From IMG/VR virus record IMGVR_UViG_3300046779_000230, positions 23,562-87,561 of that record: a stretch of 64,000 nt of DNA. The stretch is one strand, 5' to 3'. This document shows positions 48,073 through 63,786 of the stretch, piece by piece. Source of the stretch: a virus. Its lineage: Duplodnaviria > Heunggongvirae > Uroviricota > Caudoviricetes. Below the pieces are notes generated by a model. That model worked only from the letters and a program-made list of their open reading frames with translations. It had not been told where the DNA came from and searched no databases. The position numbers and the translations under genes are program-made. Position 1 is the stretch's first letter; every line of letters starts with the position of its first letter.

Positions 48073-48088
48073 TTATTTATTATTTATC
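48073..48088 (-). promoter_or_regulatory. late promoter motif GATAAATAATAAATAA (two overlapping nATAAATA boxes)
   Basis: The motif lies 42 nt upstream of the gp22 ATG and overlaps the gp21 stop codon. An identical 16-mer occurs at 58101-58116. Confidence 0.55.
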
Positions 48089-57346: not shown

Positions 57347-58084
57347 TTATCCCAAGAAAAAGTCTAGTGGAGCAGACTTGTTCATTAGATCGTCTTCTAA
57401 ATCTTTGATCTCTGTAACGGCTTCGTCGTACAGCTTATCACCGTCCAAGATAACACCGCCTGGAAGTTGAATTCCAGAAAACTTCTTAATGTTTATAGCC
57501 CACTGCTTTTTAAATAGTGCAGTCACGTAATGTTTCAACCAAGACTCATTCCACATCTTAGTGTATGTAGTTGGGTCTAGAGCGCGATAACATTCTACTA
57601 CCACGTATTGCCCTTCTTGCACATCTGATTCCCAATTCACATCCAACATCAATCTGCCTTGGATTCTATTGAAGCGATAAAGCGTTGCGCCATTCAGCTC
57701 CATATCCAACAAAGACAAGTGACTCATAATAGTCTTGTAGTAGATGATAGAAGTTGAAGTCAAGTCATACAAGTCGTGTAATCTCAGTTGGTACTGAACG
57801 TCGAATAGACTCTTAGAAGAAGATGAATGTGAGAAAGGAATAACGCGAGTAACACCATAAACTAAGTCTGGCATTGGAAGATATTGATTTGCGATATCTT
57901 CTGCAGTCACTTGGTGTTTTAGATAAACCTTTTCAGAACCATCCCAGTGATATTGTCTCCAGTATTCGATAGCTTCGTCTATTCTATCTTCTAGCTGGAC
58001 ATTATCTACGTTAATTTCGACAACAGGTGCACCCAGCGCTCTAAGCGCATATTCTTTTAGTTGTTCTCTAGTGCTTACTGCCAT
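57347..58084 (-). CDS. gp13: neck protein (T4 gp13 homolog)
   Basis: The call rests on its position upstream of gp14/gp15 and on the N-terminal pattern LKEYALRALGAPVVEINV...QLEDRIDEAI. Confidence 0.75.
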   Translation of the reverse strand: MAVSTREQLKEYALRALGAPVVEINVDNVQLEDRIDEAIEYWRQYHWDGSEKVYLKHQVTAEDIANQYLPMPDLVYGVTRVIPFSHSSSSKSLFDVQYQLRLHDLYDLTSTSIIYYKTIMSHLSLLDMELNGATLYRFNRIQGRLMLDVNWESDVQEGQYVVVECYRALDPTTYTKMWNESWLKHYVTALFKKQWAINIKKFSGIQLPGGVILDGDKLYDEAVTEIKDLEDDLMNKSAPLDFFLG

Positions 58085-58100
58085 GTTATTTTCCTGAGTG

Positions 58101-58116
58101 TTATTTATTATTTATC
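58101..58116 (-). promoter_or_regulatory. late promoter motif GATAAATAATAAATAA
   Basis: This 16-mer is identical to the one at 48073-48088. It lies 24 nt upstream of the gp13 ATG and overlaps the stop of 58112-59149. Confidence 0.55.
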
Positions 58117-59149
58117 CAGTAAAAATGTTCTGATAGTCGTCTAGTAAGAACAACCACTCAGGCTCATGGATAGAAAATGTTGAAATCTTTTTTGGTTTAT
58201 TTCTAGCATAGTGTTCCATACCTCGATCCGCTAGAAAGTCTCTCATCTGCCATCTGTGTGTAGAAGAGTCGCCTTTAACTTTTGTAAATGGTTCGTTGGT
58301 GCTAATAGCCCACTGCTGAAATTCAATAGAATCAAAAAACCCATGAATCATTTTAGCTTTTTCTGGACTAAGAAGAATCTTGTGTTCGTATATCGCTGTA
58401 TACCAGTCTAGGTTAAAAATGCAATACCATCTAAGGTCTGCAATAGTTTCTATTTTTCTTGGTGAAGTTTGAATAATTGGGTTTAAAAATTCAAGCAAGT
58501 CTTCATTAACATTACCGATATAAGACTCATATATCGTTTCTTTGTTACCTAGTGTATGATGAAACATAGCCTTATCACCAGTAGCAAACATATCATCAGT
58601 TGGTCCAAACAATTGATTGCCACACATACCACTAACAAAGATAGAATCATCAGTATTGTGAAAGCTAAAGTTATTTCTGGCTCCAACTCTAATATCAAAT
58701 AAGAAATCGTTCTTTATCTTAGAGTCAAAAAGATCGCCAGATTCTATGATAGAATTATATGTACCGAACACTCTTACTTGATCTTTATCTACAGCAAACT
58801 CTTTTAAAATGTAAAGAATATATGTACTGTCGATGCCACCAGACCACATAACATTAATTTTCTTACCAGTAGATAGAAGTTCTTTAGCTCGACGCTCTGC
58901 AACTTCATGAAAGCTAGTGTTATAGTTTTCTACTCGTTTTGGGATTGGATGAAGGTTTGGAGTTATATCGAGAAAGTGTTTCAGGTTTCCAGTCCTATCA
59001 TAAACAGCATTATGCTTGTTTAGACCGAACCACTCATAACTCTCGAATACATCTCTTGTATTGGCTAAGAATGGTGTTGACTCTATTGTTTCTCGACTTC
59101 CAGTTAGAAGTTCTGATATTAGTTGTGGGTTATAATATAAAATAGACAT
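58112..59149 (-). CDS. PP-loop ATP pyrophosphatase (asparagine-synthetase-domain-like adenylating enzyme)
   Basis: INVMWSGGIDSTYILY carries the SGGxDS PP-loop. At 345 aa it has no glutaminase domain. Confidence 0.7.
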   Translation of the reverse strand: MSILYYNPQLISELLTGSRETIESTPFLANTRDVFESYEWFGLNKHNAVYDRTGNLKHFLDITPNLHPIPKRVENYNTSFHEVAERRAKELLSTGKKINVMWSGGIDSTYILYILKEFAVDKDQVRVFGTYNSIIESGDLFDSKIKNDFLFDIRVGARNNFSFHNTDDSIFVSGMCGNQLFGPTDDMFATGDKAMFHHTLGNKETIYESYIGNVNEDLLEFLNPIIQTSPRKIETIADLRWYCIFNLDWYTAIYEHKILLSPEKAKMIHGFFDSIEFQQWAISTNEPFTKVKGDSSTHRWQMRDFLADRGMEHYARNKPKKISTFSIHEPEWLFLLDDYQNIFTG

Positions 59150-59168
59150 AGTGCCTCTAAGGAATCAA

Positions 59169-59184
59169 GGGAGCCGAAGCTCCC
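59169..59184 (-). terminator. UUCG-tetraloop hairpin (weak terminator candidate)
   Basis: The hairpin is GGGAGC-UUCG-GCUCCC followed by UUGAUUCC. Confidence 0.4.
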
Positions 59185-59189
59185 CTTTA

Positions 59190-60137
59190 TCATTGCAATT
59201 TAATTTTTTCTACTAATCCAGGTGAGAAGTAGTCTTGGAATTTATCATATACTGTAGAAGTGATTTCTCTAAACTTAGATTCTTCTTCTTCACTCATCTT
59301 GACAACTTGAATGTCATTTTGTTTACATTGTTCAAGAATATTTGGGATATCAGCAACAGACTCTTTACGCTCTTGACGCGCTGCGTTAAATGCAGCAGTA
59401 GTCATAATCTTCTGAGTCTTTTTATCAAATTGCTTAAAGAAGTCTTGATTAACAATAATAGAAGTTAAGAACAAGCTATGTGATGTTTCGTTAACTATCT
59501 TGAAAGACTTATATTGATCTAATGGGAAAACACGAACGTATGTAGACTCACCTGCAGCAATCTCGCCTTTGTCTGCATACTGGTTCATTTCTTCCAAAGT
59601 GATATCTTCGCGTGGAATAGAACCAAGAGCCTTAAATGTTTCAACGGCAACTGGAGAACGAGAAGTTCTAACCACTTTACCTTTCCATGCATCTACAGTG
59701 TTTGCAGCAAATGTAGATGGAACAATACGGTAACCACCAGAGTATGTAAATGACATAGCTTTAATGTTGGAATTCTTAGAAACCCCAGCCAATAGTTCTG
59801 TGCCAATTTCACCTTCTAGAACACGGTCAGCGTGTTCATGATCTTTGAACAAAAACGGCAGATCAAATGCATGTAGATCTTTGTTGTAGTCACCAAGCCA
59901 AGTAGTGTAGATGTGAGACATCTCAATCTTACCTGTATTGATTAAATCCATAAGATCGTATTTTGTTACTTTCTTACCATCGTTATATTTTTCAGCATAG
60001 TCAGAAAGAGACAAAACTTCGATGTCAAACGCACCGTCCGTTTTCTCGTTAACTTCTTTTGCAAATCGTTCAGCTACCTTCAAAAACAAGCCGATTGGCT
60101 CGTGGGCGATAACCCATTTGACATGTTTAGTAGTCAT
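59190..60137 (-). CDS. TRAP-type (DctP-family) solute-binding protein homolog without a signal peptide
   Basis: Three blocks match the DctP pattern: FDLPFLFKDHEHADRVLEGEIG, GKVVRTSRSP..ETFKALGS and GEIAAGES. The N-terminus MTTKHVKWVIAHEP lacks a hydrophobic leader. Confidence 0.7.
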   Translation of the reverse strand: MTTKHVKWVIAHEPIGLFLKVAERFAKEVNEKTDGAFDIEVLSLSDYAEKYNDGKKVTKYDLMDLINTGKIEMSHIYTTWLGDYNKDLHAFDLPFLFKDHEHADRVLEGEIGTELLAGVSKNSNIKAMSFTYSGGYRIVPSTFAANTVDAWKGKVVRTSRSPVAVETFKALGSIPREDITLEEMNQYADKGEIAAGESTYVRVFPLDQYKSFKIVNETSHSLFLTSIIVNQDFFKQFDKKTQKIMTTAAFNAARQERKESVADIPNILEQCKQNDIQVVKMSEEEESKFREITSTVYDKFQDYFSPGLVEKIKLQ

Positions 60138-60436
60138 TTTAGTTCCTCTAAAACTTTGGTTTCAAAAAACCATTTTTCTGTTTGTGATTTTAAATCTATT
60201 TGCCTTCTTAAGAAGGGAGTTCTATTATTTATAAGAATCCTAATAATACTCTCTTCTGGAATTTCTTCTTTATTTAGGATCTGGGATGTCGGTATAACCG
60301 TATCTCTGTAACCATATTCCTTCGCAGAAGAGTCGTAAAAAAAGTAGTCCTTGACCGTGAATCCCTCACATCCACTTAGCGGAGATCTAGGGTACTGATT
60401 TATCTCGAATAGAAATTCATTAATATATGGTGTCAT
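60134..60436 (-). CDS. hypothetical protein translationally coupled to the rSAM gene and the SBP-like gene
   Basis: The 100-aa ORF has 4-nt overlaps at both ends. Confidence 0.45.
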   Translation of the reverse strand: MTPYINEFLFEINQYPRSPLSGCEGFTVKDYFFYDSSAKEYGYRDTVIPTSQILNKEEIPEESIIRILINNRTPFLRRQIDLKSQTEKWFFETKVLEELK

Positions 60437-61806
60437 ACTGATACGATCGGAATTACTTTTTTCTTGGTTTCGACTTTTCCATTAATCATCCAGAAAATGT
60501 CTTTTCTGTCTTGTCTTAGTGGTCCATCGATATAAACTGGAATGTGTCCTGTTAAAATTTCAATAGCTGCACAAAAAATGACAATGTTGTCGCTAAATGA
60601 GTTATCGCATGTGGCTTCCCATAATGGACCAGTTAAAAAGAAACAAGCACCTTTACAGATGTGTAACACAGGGCACTTAGAACATTCTTCTCGATCACTC
60701 CAATGCGTTCCTGTTTTTATCTCAATATTTTTAAGATCTTTAACATTACCCAAGTGGTGTGAAATTCCAGATGGATTATGCGAAACTGTAGATACATTCT
60801 GGCAAGTTAAGACATTACCCTTTAAGTCTATAGCAATATTTTCAGACTTGTCCATACCACATTTCTGAGATAAGGTTTCTTTTCTAACTCCAGTTTCCAG
60901 AGACTTAATAAAGTTACTTATTTTTGTTTGTATTGTGCTGTATCGAGTAACACTGTCTGCGCGAAGTTCGTCGAATGTAAATTTTCTATAGTTAATATGA
61001 GATTCATCATTCATTAAAGAGTTAGCAGTACCACCCTCGTCGTATGCGTCAATAAAAGTGCCTTCGCCGATTGATAGGTACTTTACATATTCTTCACCAA
61101 GTTCTTTTCTGATTAACTCTTCGAAAAATAATTGAATGTTTTTACGGCTAATATTTTTGTTAGTTATCATAGAATTGAAACTAACACGACCTAGAGGAGC
61201 TAAAGTTTTATATGCGTAGATGATACCTTCTCTACTGGATGGGTCATCTAGTGGGTCTGGACCGCGAATAAATTGACCAACCGCATCATGAGAAATACCA
61301 ACAGTAAACCTTAAGTTGTTTAACCAATCAACCTTTTCTTTGTCTAGTAGACTACCATTAGTGATAATAGAAAATTCTGAGTTTGGATACTTAGCGCGAA
61401 TTTCTTCAGCAAGAGGTTTCAAGGTCTTCCAATATACTAGAGGTTCACCACCCCAAAATTCAAAGTATCTATTCGAACCCTTACCGTCTTCTCCACCATC
61501 AAACCATGATGGTATTTGTTCTACAAATTCTTGAATATCATTTGGGTTTGTAGAATCTGCGTGTGGCACAAATCTCTGATTGCAGTAATCACACTCGAAA
61601 TTACAAGAAAGACCAAGCTGTATCTTAACAGTTTTTGGTGCCTTGCCAATTTCTAGTTTTTTCTGAGATTGTGGGAGATTGTTTATTCTAGTTTCGATGA
61701 CAGCGGTGCCATCTTCCCATGTTAGGGTGCTAAACGTAGAATTATAGATCAATTTTTTAGTTAGACCGTCTTTTGGGTTAACTGATGTTATTACAAATTG
61801 TGACAT
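60433..61806 (-). CDS. radical SAM enzyme with a C-terminal SPASM domain (peptide/protein maturase type)
   Basis: GLSCNFECDYCNQ carries CxxxCxxC. The SPASM pattern is CGMDKSENIAIDLKGNVLTC (C-x13-G-x4-C), then CSKCPVLHICKGAC (CX2CX5CX3C), plus a downstream Cys. Confidence 0.85.
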   Translation of the reverse strand: MSQFVITSVNPKDGLTKKLIYNSTFSTLTWEDGTAVIETRINNLPQSQKKLEIGKAPKTVKIQLGLSCNFECDYCNQRFVPHADSTNPNDIQEFVEQIPSWFDGGEDGKGSNRYFEFWGGEPLVYWKTLKPLAEEIRAKYPNSEFSIITNGSLLDKEKVDWLNNLRFTVGISHDAVGQFIRGPDPLDDPSSREGIIYAYKTLAPLGRVSFNSMITNKNISRKNIQLFFEELIRKELGEEYVKYLSIGEGTFIDAYDEGGTANSLMNDESHINYRKFTFDELRADSVTRYSTIQTKISNFIKSLETGVRKETLSQKCGMDKSENIAIDLKGNVLTCQNVSTVSHNPSGISHHLGNVKDLKNIEIKTGTHWSDREECSKCPVLHICKGACFFLTGPLWEATCDNSFSDNIVIFCAAIEILTGHIPVYIDGPLRQDRKDIFWMINGKVETKKKVIPIVSV

Positions 61807-61824
61807 TATATACCTTAAATGAAA

Positions 61825-61845
61825 TTCTGGGGACTAGCCCCAGAA
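61825..61845 (-). terminator. hairpin between the late motif and the rSAM start (terminator or 5'-leader structure)
   Basis: The hairpin is UUCUGGGG-CUAGU-CCCCAGAA followed by UUUCAUUU. Confidence 0.5.
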
Positions 61846-61846
61846 G

Positions 61847-61854
61847 TATTTATC
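61847..61854 (-). promoter_or_regulatory. late promoter motif GATAAATA upstream of the rSAM operon
   Basis: The motif lies 40 nt upstream of the ATG at 61806 and overlaps the stop of 61853-62632. Confidence 0.45.
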
Positions 61855-62632
61855 AAGAAATTGTTATGGTAAAATCAGCTATACCTGTGTATTTTCTATG
61901 ACCAGCCTTAACTCTCACTAAGTCTCCAACATCCATACCAGTAGTTAAAAGTTTAAACGAACCAGAACCATTGGTTAATGGCACTCTAAGTTTATTTGGA
62001 ATTCCATAAACTTGCTCTAAATAAACTTCCTTGACAGTAGGGCTAGAAGAAACATCAATAGTAATACTAGAGTCTACTCCGACAGAAGACTGTGTAGAAG
62101 ATAATGTCACTGGAGCTATTAGATCTCTAGTGAAACGAACTGTTTCGCTTGTGACATGTTGAGCAGATGGACCTTCTACGATATAATCTACATCATCGCT
62201 ATCTTTGATAACATATGTAAAGTCCGTGAAATCTCCCTCAGAATCTTCAACGAAAATTCCAAACGGTGTGTAGAAAAAACCAGATTCCTGAGAATACCCT
62301 TGTTTCTTAGAGACTAGTGTTTCTGCCAATAAATCTATGACCATTGGCGCGCAAACTGGATGGTGTGTATTATTCCCATCAGAATCTAATAATGGATAAC
62401 AACTTTCTACAATAGTCCACACAGACTGATCACAGAAACCTTTTGATGCCTTTAATGTTTGTAAAGACATTTCACACCAAAATATTTCTTTGTACTCTCC
62501 ATCTTTATTCACAGAGACTTTAACTTCTAGTGTTTCAGGTTGTATATTCAAAAATATCTTGGGTGGTGTTAGGTTTTCACCCGCTTCTTTATTGAAGATT
62601 GTGTTTGGCGTTTTCGATCTAATAATTCTCAT
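61853..62632 (-). CDS. hypothetical protein, possibly virion-associated (beta-rich C-terminal domain)
   Basis: The 259-aa ORF lies between the fibre-like gene and the rSAM operon. No motif was recognised. Confidence 0.4.
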   Translation of the reverse strand: MRIIRSKTPNTIFNKEAGENLTPPKIFLNIQPETLEVKVSVNKDGEYKEIFWCEMSLQTLKASKGFCDQSVWTIVESCYPLLDSDGNNTHHPVCAPMVIDLLAETLVSKKQGYSQESGFFYTPFGIFVEDSEGDFTDFTYVIKDSDDVDYIVEGPSAQHVTSETVRFTRDLIAPVTLSSTQSSVGVDSSITIDVSSSPTVKEVYLEQVYGIPNKLRVPLTNGSGSFKLLTTGMDVGDLVRVKAGHRKYTGIADFTITIS

Positions 62633-62640
62633 AGATTACC

Positions 62641-63786
62641 TTAACAGTTGCAGTTGCAGTTACAATTATGTGCACGAAGAACCATGTTAGTTCCTTGTCT
62701 AATTGTATCATACCAAGTTGTGTCATGTCCTGGGGGATTACGTGAAGCATTACCCATACAGTTACCTACAGCTCGACCACCACCACCGTCAACGAAGAAA
62801 CCATAGTTACCTAAGTTGTTAACGAATTGAGATAGGTGACCTGGACGACCTTGTACGTTACCCCATGGAGTCACTTCAGCATAGAATGCATATCCAACGT
62901 TAGTTACGCTAACTGCTCCAGTGTTACCTTGAACAGATGTAACTGGGACTGAGACTACAACTGCGCCAGTGTTACCTTGAACAGATGTAACATGAGCAGA
63001 AACTGTTGGATTACCAGCAACACCATCTCCGTTAGAAACTGTAATACCACCACCAGCAACAATAGTTCTTGTTGCCATAGAACCAGTACCAGTTCTTGAA
63101 AGCATACCAGTTGTTGTCAAACCAGAAAGAGCAGACAAGTCAGAGTCGAATGGCTGAACGTCAGTACCGATTGTTAGACCAAGAGTGGCACGAGCAGTTA
63201 TTGCATCGCCATCGTCTAACAGAGTTCTGGCATATGGCGTCAAGCTAGTAGTATCGGCAGTGCCAAGACCTGTGTAATAAGGCAATGTATTTGCTGCAGA
63301 TGTTGTTGCAGCTAGGGCATCTAACTCTAGATTCCATGCTTGTACATCAGAACCAATGGCTAGACCCAAGTTAGTTCTAGCGCCAGCTGATGTAGATGAG
63401 CCAGTACCACCGTCTGCGATTGCCAAGTCTGTGATACCTTGGATTAAACCACTGGTAATCGCTGCTTCACCAGAATGTTTACCACTAAAATCTGCAGCTG
63501 TGATTACGTTGGCTTCAAAGTTACCTGAAGCATCACGAACTACTGCAGAGCTTTTATCAGCACCAGCTGGTAGCAATACAGATGCACTATAACCATCTAG
63601 TAAGTCGGCATCTAAGCCAGAACCGCTGCCGTCAACTGTTTTAAGTTTAGTTAAGATATCAGCTGCATTATAATCAACAGCTGTTAATTTTGTGGCTAAT
63701 TCGTTGTTCAGGTTACTAAAGTTTGCATCGACTTCAGCGTTAGTCAGCGGACTTCCTTTAGTACCTCTTAATGTAATAACTGCCAT
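62641..63786 (-). CDS. tail-fibre-like protein ending in (Asn-Cys)4
   Basis: The N-terminus [24 protein letters not shown] is a common phage-fibre N-terminal motif. SVQGNTGAV fibre repeats occur twice. The region between is Gly/Thr/Ala-rich and beta-type. The C-terminus is [11 protein letters not shown]. Confidence 0.75.
62644..62667 (-). repeat. codon-level tandem repeat encoding NCNCNCNC at the extreme C-terminus
   Basis: The minus strand reads AAT TGT AAC TGC AAC TGC AAC TGT TAA. Confidence 0.9.
62918..62991 (-). repeat. 26-bp direct repeat at a 48-nt period
   Basis: ccagtgttaccttgaacagatgtaac occurs at 62918-62943 and again at 62966-62991. It encodes [11 protein letters not shown] twice. 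Confidence 0.9.

What the first reader, a model, noticed from the sequence alone, without database searches (positions are those of the whole stretch)
58112..61854. Radical SAM/SPASM maturase operon behind a late-promoter motif, embedded in the virion-morphogenesis block
SEEN: ORF 60433-61806 has CxxxCxxC plus the complete SPASM cysteine pattern (C-x13-G-x4-C, CX2CX5CX3C and a further Cys). It is translationally coupled by 4-nt overlaps to a 100-aa ORF and then to a leaderless DctP-type binding protein. A hairpin follows, and then a PP-loop (SGGIDS) Asn-synthetase-like ATPase whose stop lies inside the gp13 late promoter 16-mer. A GATAAATA motif at 61847-61854 precedes the operon. The whole cluster sits between fibre-like genes and neck gene gp13, where T4-type genomes normally carry only structural genes.

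ESTABLISHED: SPASM enzymes install thioether or C-C crosslinks, or formylglycine, on peptides and proteins (sactipeptide, ranthipeptide, QhpD, anSME and PqqE types). Asn-synthetase-like PP-loop enzymes form amide or lactam bonds.

INFERENCE: This may be a late-expressed, phage-encoded protein or peptide maturation system. It could act on a virion protein (see the (NC)4 fibre tail) or make a small molecule that the SBP-like protein binds. I know of no described equivalent in T4-like phages.
Basis: partly seen in the sequence, partly recalled or inferred. Interest (0 to 1): 0.8.

Follow-up and report, generated by a model that had tools for sequence, protein, structure and literature searches.

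The report
Phage tail-fibre Cys-repeat maturase module
A marine T4-like phage carries a radical-SAM/SPASM enzyme that, across many phages and prophages, almost always sits beside a tail-fibre protein ending in an Asn-Cys repeat, which suggests an undescribed enzymatic modification (probably cross-linking) of the phage's host-recognition fibre.

Summary
The ORFs, CxxxCxxC motif, full 7-Cys SPASM motif, two ATGA overlaps, leaderless DctP-like protein, hairpins, SGGIDS PP-loop protein and ATAAATA motifs are all present.

The tail is the only invariant part of the fibre's C-terminus. Of 25 distinct viral ORFs ending NCNCNC, 23 have a homologue of this rSAM nearby. rSAM homologues at 42-52% identity in Burkholderiales prophages, Achromobacter phage JWF/2-1 and other marine myophages again sit next to (N/D/A-C)n-tailed proteins. 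In three siphovirus-type loci the repeat is internal but is followed directly by a self-cleaving Hint domain.

The chemistry is inferred, not shown; Cys-to-Asn thioethers are my leading guess. The premise that this region holds only structural genes is wrong, because it is the known hypervariable host-recognition cluster of marine T4-like phages. I found no published description.

The parts
62641..63786 (-). Tail-fibre-like structural protein (381 aa), the proposed substrate. It ends in HNCNCNCNC-stop.
   Evidence: PHROG tail-fibre and structural-protein hits. Residues 103-270 are homologous to cyanophage and Rhizobium-phage fibre proteins. 32 distinct homologues all keep the NC tail although the preceding ~60 residues diverge.
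62644..62667 (-). Codons for the (Asn-Cys)4 C-terminal tail, the proposed modification site. At the DNA level it is an (AACTGC) hexamer repeat.
   Evidence: These are the only universally conserved Cys of the fibre family. It is the only such motif in a real ORF in the window. TRF finds period 6, 2.8 copies. Tail statistics cover 110 proteins.
61853..62632 (-). orf259, a conserved companion protein of unknown function. Its N-terminus is variable and its C-terminal ~90 aa (beta-rich) are conserved.
   Evidence: It lies between fibre and rSAM in nearly all fibre-type loci. Homologues occur in distant versions of the system: hhalign 97% in L080 and 96.6% in L041. No Pfam, PHROG or PDB family matches.
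61847..61854 (-). GATAAATA, a T4-type late-promoter-like motif 47 nt before the rSAM ATG.
   Evidence: ATAAATA is present in the same intergenic region in 12 of 20 related loci, sometimes in the hairpin loop.
61825..61845 (-). Terminator-like hairpin (8 bp stem, then UUUCAUUU) between orf259 and the rSAM gene.
   Evidence: dG -12.5 kcal/mol, z -2.7. A hairpin of differing sequence occurs at the same place in most related loci.
60433..61806 (-). Radical SAM/SPASM enzyme (457 aa), the proposed maturase of the fibre tail.
   Evidence: Homologues co-occur with NC-tailed proteins. The family has 266 representatives of 50%-identity clusters at E<=1e-30.
60134..60436 (-). orf100, a small conserved accessory protein with no known fold. 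It is translationally coupled to the genes on both sides.
59190..60137 (-). Leaderless DctP/TRAP-type solute-binding-fold protein (315 aa); accessory.
   Evidence: PF03480 at 3.7e-43 and NF037995 at 101.8 against a cut-off of 50. It aligns from the mature N-terminus of SiaP and keeps the conserved ligand-carboxylate Arg. A 77%-identical copy lies in the rearranged locus L248.
59169..59185 (-). GC-rich hairpin with a UUCG loop after the DctP-like gene.
   Evidence: dG -14.9 kcal/mol, z -3.2.
58112..59149 (-). Stand-alone AsnB-type PP-loop synthetase domain (345 aa, SGGIDS) without a glutaminase domain; accessory.
58101..58116 (-). GATAAATAATAAATAA, a tandem late-promoter-like 16-mer before gp13. 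It overlaps the stop of the PP-loop gene and marks the downstream boundary.
   Evidence: An identical 16-mer lies at 48088-48073, before another minus-strand ORF.

Best explanation
The rSAM/SPASM enzyme is a dedicated maturase of the tail-fibre protein encoded two genes upstream. Its target is the fibre's extreme C-terminal (Asn-Cys)4 tail.

Shown here:
- The enzyme has a complete radical-SAM site and both auxiliary-cluster Cys sets.
- An (X-Cys)n tail (X = Asn 82%, Asp 8%, Ala 6%; n = 3-7) is the one feature shared by the otherwise unrelated proteins encoded next to this enzyme clade. This holds in marine T4-like phages, lambda-like Burkholderiales prophages and Achromobacter siphophages.
- Where the repeat is internal, a Hint autoprocessing domain starts at its last Cys, so cleavage would again expose the repeat at the C-terminus.

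Inferred mechanism:
- As in NxxcB, PapB, QhpD and the sactisynthases, an auxiliary Fe-S cluster would hold a tail Cys thiolate.
- The 5'-deoxyadenosyl radical would abstract an H atom from a neighbouring residue. NCNC contains the N-x-x-C spacing that NxxcB uses for Cys-to-Asn C-beta thioethers.
- A C-S bond would form, and the reaction would repeat along the tail.
- The result would be a compact, reduction-proof knot at the distal fibre tip. It could lie within one chain or staple the trimer.

Other components:
- orf259 is a conserved companion of unknown role.
- orf100, the leaderless DctP-like protein and the AsnB-type synthetase domain form an optional accessory set.
- Both the DctP fold and AsnB-type enzymes handle carboxylates. 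I therefore propose that this set binds and adenylates the tail's C-terminal carboxylate for amide or acyl transfer. This would parallel the activated thioester that the Hint domain makes in the siphovirus versions.
- The promoter-like motif and the preceding hairpin would express the enzyme late, with its substrate, but at a lower level.

Step confidences: rSAM acts on the NC tail, about 0.7. The product is a thioether, about 0.35-0.4. The accessory set acts on the C-terminal carboxylate, about 0.2.
For: Link between the NC tail and the rSAM:
- the tail Cys are the only invariant Cys in 32 fibre homologues.
- a reciprocal DNA-pattern scan found 25 distinct ORFs of at least 80 aa that end NCNCNC and have at least 4 kb of downstream sequence. 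23 of them have an rSAM homologue (40-68% identity) in the retrieved locus, mostly 150-3300 nt downstream.
- distant loci carry other NC-tailed proteins. L041 has three tandem ~87-aa copies. L080 has a 133-aa N/C-rich protein ending in (NC)7, 18 nt before the rSAM ORF.
- about 50 Burkholderiales loci have an rSAM at 42-52% identity preceded by an ORF ending NCNCNC[A/D]C[D/N]C(C).
- two of these loci are lambda-like prophage tail modules.
- the NC repeat is followed directly by a Hint domain in Achromobacter phage 2-1, the B. paludis prophage and one MAG.

Enzyme class:
- the nearest characterised relatives are thioether-forming or protein-modifying SPASM enzymes (PapB 1.3e-16, anSME 3.9e-16, QhpD 1.1e-12, CteB 1.6e-6).
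- (PMC9389541): NxxcB links Cys to Asn C-beta and tolerates Ala, Gln and Asp. The tails here use N, D and A.

Accessory genes:
- the six-gene set persists in shuffled order in L035 and L248. This argues for a functional module rather than chance neighbours.
- the PP-loop protein has an AsnB-type fold.
- the DctP-like protein keeps the carboxylate-binding Arg and has no leader.
Against: - No mass-spectrometric or biochemical data exist. The type of modification is entirely inferred.
- All family-specific HMM scores are far below cut-off (for example PapB 60.8 against 340), so chemistry cannot be transferred by homology.
- At least two NC-tailed ORF families lack a nearby rSAM in the DNA available: a 184-aa protein ending ...ELCGLENCNCNC and a 203-aa protein ending ...GESNCNCNC.
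- RSP15's candidate ends only in NTNCQCGN.
- A Cys-rich tail could instead bind metal or form disulfides.
- No RRE-like recognition domain was found. orf100 has no PqqD-like fold.
- The role of the accessory trio is a guess from fold-level properties.
- Virion incorporation of the fibre is inferred from homology only.
Confidence: 0.6

Rival explanations
1. Same substrate, different chemistry or purpose. The NC tail is primarily a metal- or Fe-S-binding site, or a disulfide staple, of the trimeric fibre tip. The rSAM performs some other reaction on it, for example Cys oxidation to formylglycine or dehydroalanine (anSME-like), epimerisation, C-C cross-linking or methylthiolation.
For: anSME is as close as PapB by HMM (3.9e-16 against 1.3e-16; 4k37 at 1.3e-5). 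A trimer would carry twelve Cys, which could ligate metals. Burkholderiales tails often end in extra Cys/Gly (CC, CGC, CGCC). Metal ions in fibre tips are known from T4 (my own knowledge).
Against: The anSME recognition motif (C/S-x-P/A-x-R) is absent from the tails. The intervening residue is strongly constrained to Asn, Asp or Ala. That constraint is expected if it is a reaction partner, and is not needed for a pure metal site. Most characterised SPASM enzymes with Cys-rich substrates make thioethers (PMC9389541, PMC7876137, PMC12373016).
Confidence: 0.2
2. The rSAM, orf100, DctP-like and AsnB-like genes form a small-molecule (auxiliary metabolic) pathway. The rSAM and PP-loop enzyme make or alter a carboxylate metabolite that the SBP-like protein binds. 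Linkage to the fibre only reflects residence in the hypervariable island.
For: DctP-family proteins bind small organic acids, and the ligand-binding Arg is kept. AsnB-type enzymes such as beta-lactam synthetase, CarA and TsnB9 act on small molecules. The island is known to hold metabolic genes (PMC7029224).
Against: The rSAM occurs without the three accessory genes in about a third of marine loci and in essentially all Burkholderiales prophages, yet almost never without an NC-tailed protein. The SBP-like protein has no leader, and none of the adjacent genes is a TRAP membrane component. SPASM enzymes of this type act on peptides or proteins.
Confidence: 0.1
3. The NC-tailed proteins are precursors of a free RiPP-like product, for example a toxin, signal or anti-defence peptide released by cleavage, and are not functional virion parts.
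For: Some carriers are small (87-161 aa) and occur in tandem copies like RiPP precursors. A Bacteriovorax clade has a 61-aa ORF ending ACACGGPCACGGPCY next to a 34%-identity rSAM.
Against: The carriers have tail-fibre homology or fibre-like N-termini, and they sit inside tail-fibre modules next to central tail fibre J, S74 fibres and gp13. No protease or exporter gene is consistently present.
Confidence: 0.07
4. Chance neighbourhood. The genes are unrelated cargo of a plastic region, and the NC tail is a low-complexity accident of a hexanucleotide repeat.
For: The tail is encoded by a short (AACTGC)n DNA repeat. The region is hypervariable.
Against: Co-occurrence holds across phage families, habitats and unrelated carrier proteins, with differing codon usage, and in both search directions. 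Gene order changes while gene content is kept.
Confidence: 0.02

Closest known systems
NxxcB/NxxcA (streptococcal RaS-RiPP; beta-thioether between Cys and Asn in an N-x-x-C motif)
   Same: It is a SPASM-type radical SAM enzyme. Its substrate motif pairs Asn with Cys, and NCNC contains the N-x-x-C spacing. The tolerated acceptor residues (Asn, Ala, Asp, Gln) resemble the residues seen between the Cys here (N, D, A).
   Different: No NxxcB sequence or model was available, so relatedness was not tested. The substrate here is the C-terminal end of a 90-550 aa phage structural protein rather than a small leader-dependent peptide. The motif here is a strict alternating repeat at the extreme C-terminus.
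PapB/PapA ranthipeptide maturase
   Same: It is the best NCBIfam hit over the full length (1.3e-16, residues 60-389). It makes several thioethers in a repeat substrate and can use the C-terminal residue as acceptor (PMC12373016).
   Different: The score is 60.8 against a cut-off of 340, so this enzyme is not a member. PapB needs a carboxylate-bearing acceptor (Asp, Glu or the C-terminus), whereas marine tails contain only Asn, Ala or Val between the Cys.
QhpD/QhpC (quinohemoprotein amine dehydrogenase gamma-subunit cross-linking)
   Same: A SPASM enzyme installs multiple Cys thioethers in a protein that then serves as a structural subunit. Enzyme and substrate are co-encoded, for single-use stoichiometric action (PMC7876137).
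   Different: The match is partial only (1.1e-12 against a cut-off of 453). QhpC has an N-terminal leader and Asp/Glu acceptors, and the context is a periplasmic enzyme rather than a virion.
Anaerobic sulfatase-maturating enzyme (anSME)
   Same: It is a SPASM enzyme that acts on a protein without an RRE domain, and is the second-best hit (3.9e-16; PDB 4k37 at 1.3e-5). The Achromobacter phage JWF homologue was annotated with this name.
   Different: The score is 59 against a cut-off of 349. There is no sulfatase, and no C/S-x-P/A-x-R motif in the tails.
Asparagine synthetase B superfamily synthetase domains (AsnB, beta-lactam synthetase, CarA, TsnB9, lasso cyclases)
   Different: It lacks the N-terminal glutaminase domain (345 aa against ~500-570). 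There is no Pfam Asn_synthase hit. It forms a narrow phage-only family of 189 proteins. Its substrate is unknown.
TRAP-transporter solute-binding proteins (DctP family)
   Same: Pfam and NCBIfam domain hits, full-length alignment to solved DctP/SiaP structures, and a conserved ligand Arg.
   Different: There is no signal peptide and no DctQ/DctM partner genes next to it. It is encoded inside a phage tail-fibre module and is translationally coupled to orf100.
Hint / bacterial intein-like autoprocessing domains
   Same: In Achromobacter phage 2-1/JWF, the B. paludis prophage and one MAG, the NC repeat is followed directly by a Hint domain whose first Cys is the last Cys of the repeat.
   Different: The window's fibre has no Hint domain; its repeat is already terminal. 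This is a variant of the same system, not a homologue of anything in the window.

Membership tests
Radical SAM superfamily | CxxxCxxC motif for the SAM-binding [4Fe-4S] cluster, and a Pfam PF04055 match above the gathering score | tested here: met
   C68, C72 and C75 are invariant in 13 homologues. PF04055 scores 38.1 against 29.5.
SPASM subfamily | C-terminal 7-Cys pattern (Cx9-15Gx4C ... Cx2Cx5Cx3C ... C), and a TIGR04085 match above cut-off | tested here: met
   C316-x13-G-x4-C335, C375/C378/C384/C388 and C400 are all invariant. TIGR04085 scores 34.5 against 27.
PapB ranthipeptide maturases (NF047865) | Score above the equivalog cut-off of 340 | tested here: not met
   60.8 bits.
Anaerobic sulfatase maturase (TIGR03942) | Score above cut-off 349, plus a sulfatase substrate with the C/S-x-P/A-x-R motif | tested here: not met
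   59.1 bits. There is no such motif in the tails and no sulfatase among the neighbouring genes.
QhpD (TIGR03906), SCIFF maturase CteB (TIGR03974) and other named SPASM RiPP maturases | Score above the family cut-off | tested here: not met
   All 42 NCBIfam hits are far below their cut-offs (best 47.3 against 453 and 38 against 425).
NxxcB-type beta-thioether synthases | Sequence membership, and formation of a Cys S to Asn C-beta bond in N-x-x-C | not testable with these tools
   No NxxcB model or sequence was at hand, and no chemistry is available. Only the motif resemblance was noted.
RiPP systems with an RRE (PqqD-like) recognition element | A PqqD-like winged-helix domain in the enzyme or in a partner protein | tested here: not met
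Prokaryotic viperins (pVip) | Full-length match to viperin models | tested here: not met
   Only the radical-SAM core (residues 62-176) matches. The C-terminus is a SPASM domain.
DctP/TRAP solute-binding proteins | (a) PF03480 or NF037995 match. (b) Conserved ligand-carboxylate Arg. (c) Signal peptide and periplasmic location. (d) Adjacent DctQ/DctM genes. | tested here: inconclusive
   (a) Met: 148 bits, and 101.8 against 50. TIGR00787 scores 113.5 against 175, which is not met. (b) Met. (c) Not met: the alignment starts at the mature N-terminus. (d) Not met among the adjacent genes. The fold is a member; the transporter role is unlikely.
Asparagine synthetase B family | (a) PP-loop SGGxDS. 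(b) Synthetase-domain fold. (c) N-terminal Ntn glutaminase domain with Cys2. (d) Pfam Asn_synthase match. | tested here: inconclusive
T4-type late promoter | TATAAATA-like -10 element shortly upstream of a late gene, plus gp55-dependent late transcription | tested here: inconclusive
   The motif GATAAATA (7 of 8 positions) lies 47 nt before the ATG. Seven of ten ATAAATA copies lie 24-77 nt upstream of ORFs, and all are on the coding strand. Transcription was not testable.
Phage tail fibre (substrate protein) | Homology to known fibre proteins, and presence in virions | tested here: inconclusive
   Homology is met (PHROG tail-fibre families; cyanophage 'fiber' and structural proteins). Virion presence cannot be tested here.

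The most novel reading that the evidence does not exclude
Phage host-recognition fibres carry an enzymatically installed, RiPP-like cross-linked tip. A dedicated SPASM radical-SAM enzyme would knot the C-terminal (Asn-Cys)n tail with thioethers, possibly stapling the three chains covalently. The fibre's C-terminal acyl group would be separately activated, by an AsnB-type ligase with a cytoplasmic SBP-fold partner in marine myophages or by a Hint domain in siphophages, for amidation or ligation. This would be a new class of virion post-translational modification. It would be widespread in marine T4-like phages and in Burkholderiales phages and prophages, and needed for adsorption or fibre stability.
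Probability: 0.35. Interest if true: 0.9.

Novelty: new variant of a known kind. Interest (0 to 1): 0.78.

Why it matters
Tail fibres decide which hosts a phage can infect. Apart from autoproteolysis and chaperone-assisted folding, they are regarded as plain polypeptides. A radical-SAM cross-link at the fibre tip would matter in four ways:

- **New virion chemistry.** It would add a new kind of covalent chemistry to virion assembly, comparable in spirit to the HK97 capsid cross-links.
- **A very large SPASM substrate.** It would make the substrate one of the largest known for a SPASM 'peptide' maturase.
- **An explanation for a known observation.** It would explain the unexplained 'radical SAM cassettes' in the host-recognition islands of abundant marine myophages.
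- **A usable enzyme-tag pair.** It would provide a short C-terminal tag ((NC)3-4) with a cognate enzyme for making reduction-proof protein staples.

The system is experimentally accessible. Homologous systems exist in cultured Achromobacter and Ralstonia phages, and in prophages of Burkholderia paludis MSh1 and of Limnohabitans and Polynucleobacter isolates.

Tried and rejected
**Searches that found nothing**
- A DNA-level search of 58000-62000 against cultured phages gave no match.
- orf100 and orf259 have no family in Pfam, NCBIfam, PHROGs, PADLOC or PDB profile searches.
- The window has no tRNA and no Rfam hits.
- Literature searches found no description. I searched for radical SAM with tail fibre, SPASM or thioether, for NCNCNC or Asn-Cys repeat, and for phage JWF and RSP15. 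The only mention is a passing one in PMC7029224.

**Ideas tested and rejected**
- The proteins just upstream of the rSAM in Achromobacter phage 2-1, B. paludis and RSP15 as orf259 homologues: rejected. The first two are homologous to each other.
- orf100 as related to the small ORF after the rSAM in phage 2-1: rejected.
- Viperin/pVip hits: only the shared radical-SAM core matches.
- gp13 adjacency as a conserved feature: rejected. Among the IMG/VR loci, only L003/L044 (the 97-100%-identical contig) and L118 have gp13 within the retrieved sequence. L248 and L250 do end near gp13.

**Technical limits**
I repeated it with database homologues.
- The afdb50 fold library was unavailable.
- The structure-prediction cap left orf259, the rSAM and the fibre unmodelled.
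- Sequence profiles alone could not place the PP-loop protein beyond the P-loop. The structure comparison was needed.

Full report
**1. The observation**

*Radical SAM/SPASM enzyme (60433-61806, 457 aa)*
- It matches Pfam Radical_SAM at 38.1 bits (cut-off 29.5) and the NCBIfam SPASM domain TIGR04085 at 34.5 bits (cut-off 27).
- In an alignment of 13 homologues down to 44% identity, ten Cys are invariant. These are C68/C72/C75, C316-x13-G-x4-C335, C375-x2-C378-x5-C384-x3-C388 and C400.

*Downstream genes*
- The rSAM stop and orf100 start overlap as ATGA. So do the orf100 stop and the start of the DctP-like gene.
- The DctP-like protein matches PF03480 at 3.7e-43. It aligns with mature SiaP from its own N-terminus, so it has no signal peptide. 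It keeps the conserved ligand-carboxylate arginine.
- A GC-rich UUCG hairpin follows it (dG -14.9 kcal/mol, z -3.2).
- The next protein carries WSGGIDST. Its TAA stop lies inside GATAAATAATAAATAA, and an identical 16-mer lies before another ORF at 48088-48073.

*Promoter-like motifs*
- GATAAATA lies 47 nt before the rSAM ATG.
- ATAAATA is not enriched overall (10 copies against ~14 expected). However, all ten are on the coding strand and seven lie 24-77 nt upstream of ORF starts.

**2. Where the window comes from**

The window is an uncultured marine T4-like myophage.
- Its large terminase is only ~50-52% identical to those of the OM43 phage Melnitz and of cyanomyophages.
- gp13, gp14 and gp15 follow the cluster.
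- The region upstream of gp13/gp14 in marine T4-like phages has been described as a hypervariable 'host recognition cluster'. It holds tail fibres together with non-structural genes, and 'radical SAM cassettes' are mentioned there in passing (PMC7029224).
The location by itself is not surprising.

**3. The decisive evidence: enzyme and fibre tail travel together**

*Viral contigs found with the rSAM*
- A scan of IMG/VR found 41 loci.
- In almost all of them the gene order is fibre, orf259, rSAM.
- The fibre homologues diverge widely over their last ~60 residues. Even so, all end in NC(x)NCNCNC-stop, and these are the only invariant cysteines in the family.

*Reverse test*
- I scanned viral contigs for DNA encoding NCNCNC-stop.
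- 25 distinct ORFs of at least 80 aa had at least 4 kb of downstream sequence.
- 23 of them have a homologue of this rSAM (40-68% identity) in the locus, mostly 150-3300 nt downstream.

*The carrier proteins are not all homologous*
- 380-440-aa fibres like the one in the window.
- 130-180-aa N/C-rich proteins ending in (NC)5-7, 15-30 nt upstream of the rSAM ORF (about 160-200 nt before the aligned region).
- 87-167-aa fibre-like proteins, present as three tandem copies in L041.
- Proteins of 350-550 aa.

*Cellular genomes*
- A profile scan of 185,579 genomes found 80 loci, mostly in Burkholderiales. They include Limnohabitans, Polynucleobacter, Burkholderia paludis MSh1 and Paraburkholderia.
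- The rSAM there (42-52% identity) is again preceded by an ORF ending NCNCNC[A/D]C[D/N]C(C).
- Two loci checked in detail are lambda-like prophage tail modules. They run central tail fibre J, tail assembly protein, NC-tailed fibre, rSAM, endolysin.

*Cultured phages*
- Achromobacter phages JWF and 2-1 and Ralstonia phage RSP15 have the enzyme next to tail genes.
- In JWF the rSAM homologue was annotated as 'anaerobic sulfatase-maturating enzyme'.

*Tail statistics*
- Over 110 distinct tails, the residue between the Cys is Asn in 82%, Asp in 8% and Ala in 6%.
- The repeat number is 3-7.
- In 80 of 110 the run is the exact C-terminus. In most others it is followed by at most four Cys/Gly residues.

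**4. Hint-domain variants**

- In Achromobacter phage 2-1 the candidate fibre reads ...RANCNCDCNCSC|FPAGTMVLMADG.... Pfam places the start of a Hint domain at the last Cys of the repeat.
- The B. paludis prophage has ...GNCNCNCACTC|FPAGTRIMMADG..., and one MAG has the same design.
- From established knowledge of Hint domains, they cleave the bond before their first Cys through a thioester. The mature fibre would therefore again end in the NC repeat.
- This independently indicates that a C-terminal NC repeat is the functional element.

**5. What the enzyme resembles**

- By HMM, the nearest named families are PapB (1.3e-16), anSME (3.9e-16), QhpD, DynA, YhhB and the SCIFF maturase. All are far below their cut-offs.
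- The nearest solved structures are CteB and anSME.
- The enzyme therefore belongs to a separate SPASM clade. That clade has 266 representatives of 50%-identity clusters at E<=1e-30, and PHROG 1802 matches at 4e-64.
- Characterised relatives with Cys-rich substrates make thioethers:
  - NxxcB links Cys to Asn C-beta in N-x-x-C and tolerates Ala, Gln and Asp (PMC9389541).
  - PapB links Cys to Asp, Glu or the C-terminal residue (PMC12373016).
  - QhpD cross-links a protein subunit (PMC7876137).
- NCNC contains the N-x-x-C spacing.
- My leading hypothesis is therefore multiple Cys-to-Asn thioethers. This is an inference from analogy, not a result.

**6. The other genes**

*orf259*
- It has a variable N-terminal part and a conserved beta-rich C-terminal ~90 aa.
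- Homologues occur in distant versions of the system.
- The siphovirus versions carry an unrelated ~250-aa protein at that position.
- No known family matches it.

*The accessory trio*
- orf100, the DctP-like protein and the PP-loop protein occur in roughly two thirds of the marine fibre-type loci.
- The six genes recur in shuffled order in L035 and in L248. L248 runs NC-tailed 161-aa protein, DctP-like, DUF2061, PP-loop, orf100-like, rSAM, a 68-aa ORF, orf259-like.
- L250 keeps PP-loop, orf100-like and rSAM adjacent.
- Content is conserved while order changes, which argues for functional linkage.

*The PP-loop protein*
- It has no Pfam family, and a profile search detects only the P-loop.
- It is a stand-alone AsnB-type synthetase domain without the glutaminase domain.

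*orf100*
- It folds confidently (pLDDT 89).
- It has no structural relative in the PDB or BFVD, so it is not a PqqD-like RRE.

*Proposed role of the trio*
- Both the DctP fold and AsnB-type enzymes deal with carboxylates.
- In the marine tails seen here, the C-terminus is the only carboxylate.
- I therefore propose, with low confidence, that this set binds and adenylates the fibre's C-terminal carboxylate.
- That would be functionally parallel to the thioester made by the Hint domain in the siphovirus versions.

**7. Expression signals**

- Most related loci have a hairpin of differing sequence in the orf259-rSAM spacer.
- 12 of 20 have ATAAATA there, in several cases in the hairpin loop.
- This is consistent with attenuation after the abundant structural genes and late re-initiation for the enzyme. 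It remains motif-level evidence.

**8. Rivals**

- Same substrate but other chemistry or a metal-binding role (0.2).
- A small-molecule pathway (0.1). This is disfavoured because the rSAM commonly lacks the accessory genes but hardly ever lacks an NC-tailed neighbour.
- A free RiPP product (0.07). This is disfavoured by the fibre homology and the tail-module context.
- Chance (0.02).

**9. Verdict**

- The finding is best described as a widespread, undescribed pairing of a new SPASM clade with (Asn-Cys)n-tailed phage fibre proteins.
- The kind of enzyme and the substrate logic are known, but the biological setting, the motif and the accessory genes are new. Hence 'new variant of a known kind'.
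- Interest is 0.78. A phage or RiPP specialist would be surprised, and the idea is directly testable in cultured systems.

Noticed in passing
window 58101-58116 and 48073-48088 (minus strand): An identical 16-mer, GATAAATAATAAATAA (a tandem late-promoter-like motif), occurs twice. One copy is 24-31 nt before gp13 and the other is 42-49 nt before the 327-aa ORF 48038-47055. All ten ATAAATA copies in the window are on the coding strand.
   Followed up: partly
window 61825-61845; related loci L004-L030 in the orf259-rSAM spacer: A hairpin of conserved position but differing sequence precedes the rSAM gene in most related phages. In L012, L018, L022 and L025 the ATAAATA motif sits in the hairpin loop. 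This suggests a combined attenuator and late-promoter element.
   Followed up: partly
window 62645-62661: The NC tail is encoded by an exact (AACTGC) hexanucleotide repeat. Repeat number varies from 3 to 7 among homologues. In-frame slippage could therefore vary tail length.
   Followed up: no
L001:4853-6295 (Achromobacter phage 2-1), L201:5778-7307 (Burkholderia paludis MSh1 prophage), L183:5262-6392: Tail-fibre proteins in which the NC repeat is fused directly to a Hint (intein-like) autoprocessing domain. A conserved ~250-aa protein and the rSAM follow.
   Followed up: partly
L041:3799-9371 and L080:734-4839: Other modifying enzymes accompany the system in some phages. L041 has three 2OG-Fe(II) oxygenase-like genes with three tandem NC-tailed 87-aa proteins. 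L080 has a tryptophan-halogenase-like flavoprotein. L250 has a second PP-loop paralogue, a cupin, an aminotransferase and a methyltransferase.
   Followed up: partly
loci L164-L243; Cellular homologues are strongly skewed to Burkholderiales, and all cultured phages with the enzyme infect Burkholderiales (Achromobacter, Ralstonia). The window's terminase is closest to phage Melnitz of marine OM43 Methylophilales. The host may therefore be a marine betaproteobacterium rather than SAR11 or a cyanobacterium.
   Followed up: no
L215:1976-2161 and L216-L222 (Bacteriovorax/Bacteriovoracaceae MAGs): A more distant rSAM clade (31-35% identity) lacks NC-tailed neighbours. In L215 a 61-aa ORF ends GSACACGGPCACGGPCY, which may be a different Cys-repeat substrate.
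   Followed up: no
L109:4896-5450, L121:2672-3226, L153, L064, L130: Two protein families end in NCNCNC (184 aa, ...ELCGLENCNCNC; 203 aa, ...GESNCNCNC) without an rSAM homologue in the DNA retrieved. They are exceptions to the pairing, or the enzyme is encoded elsewhere.
   Followed up: no
L248:6756-6995 and L250:6730-6981: A small DUF2061 protein with predicted hydrophobic helices sits immediately upstream of the PP-loop gene in the rearranged versions of the module. It is absent from the window.
   Followed up: no
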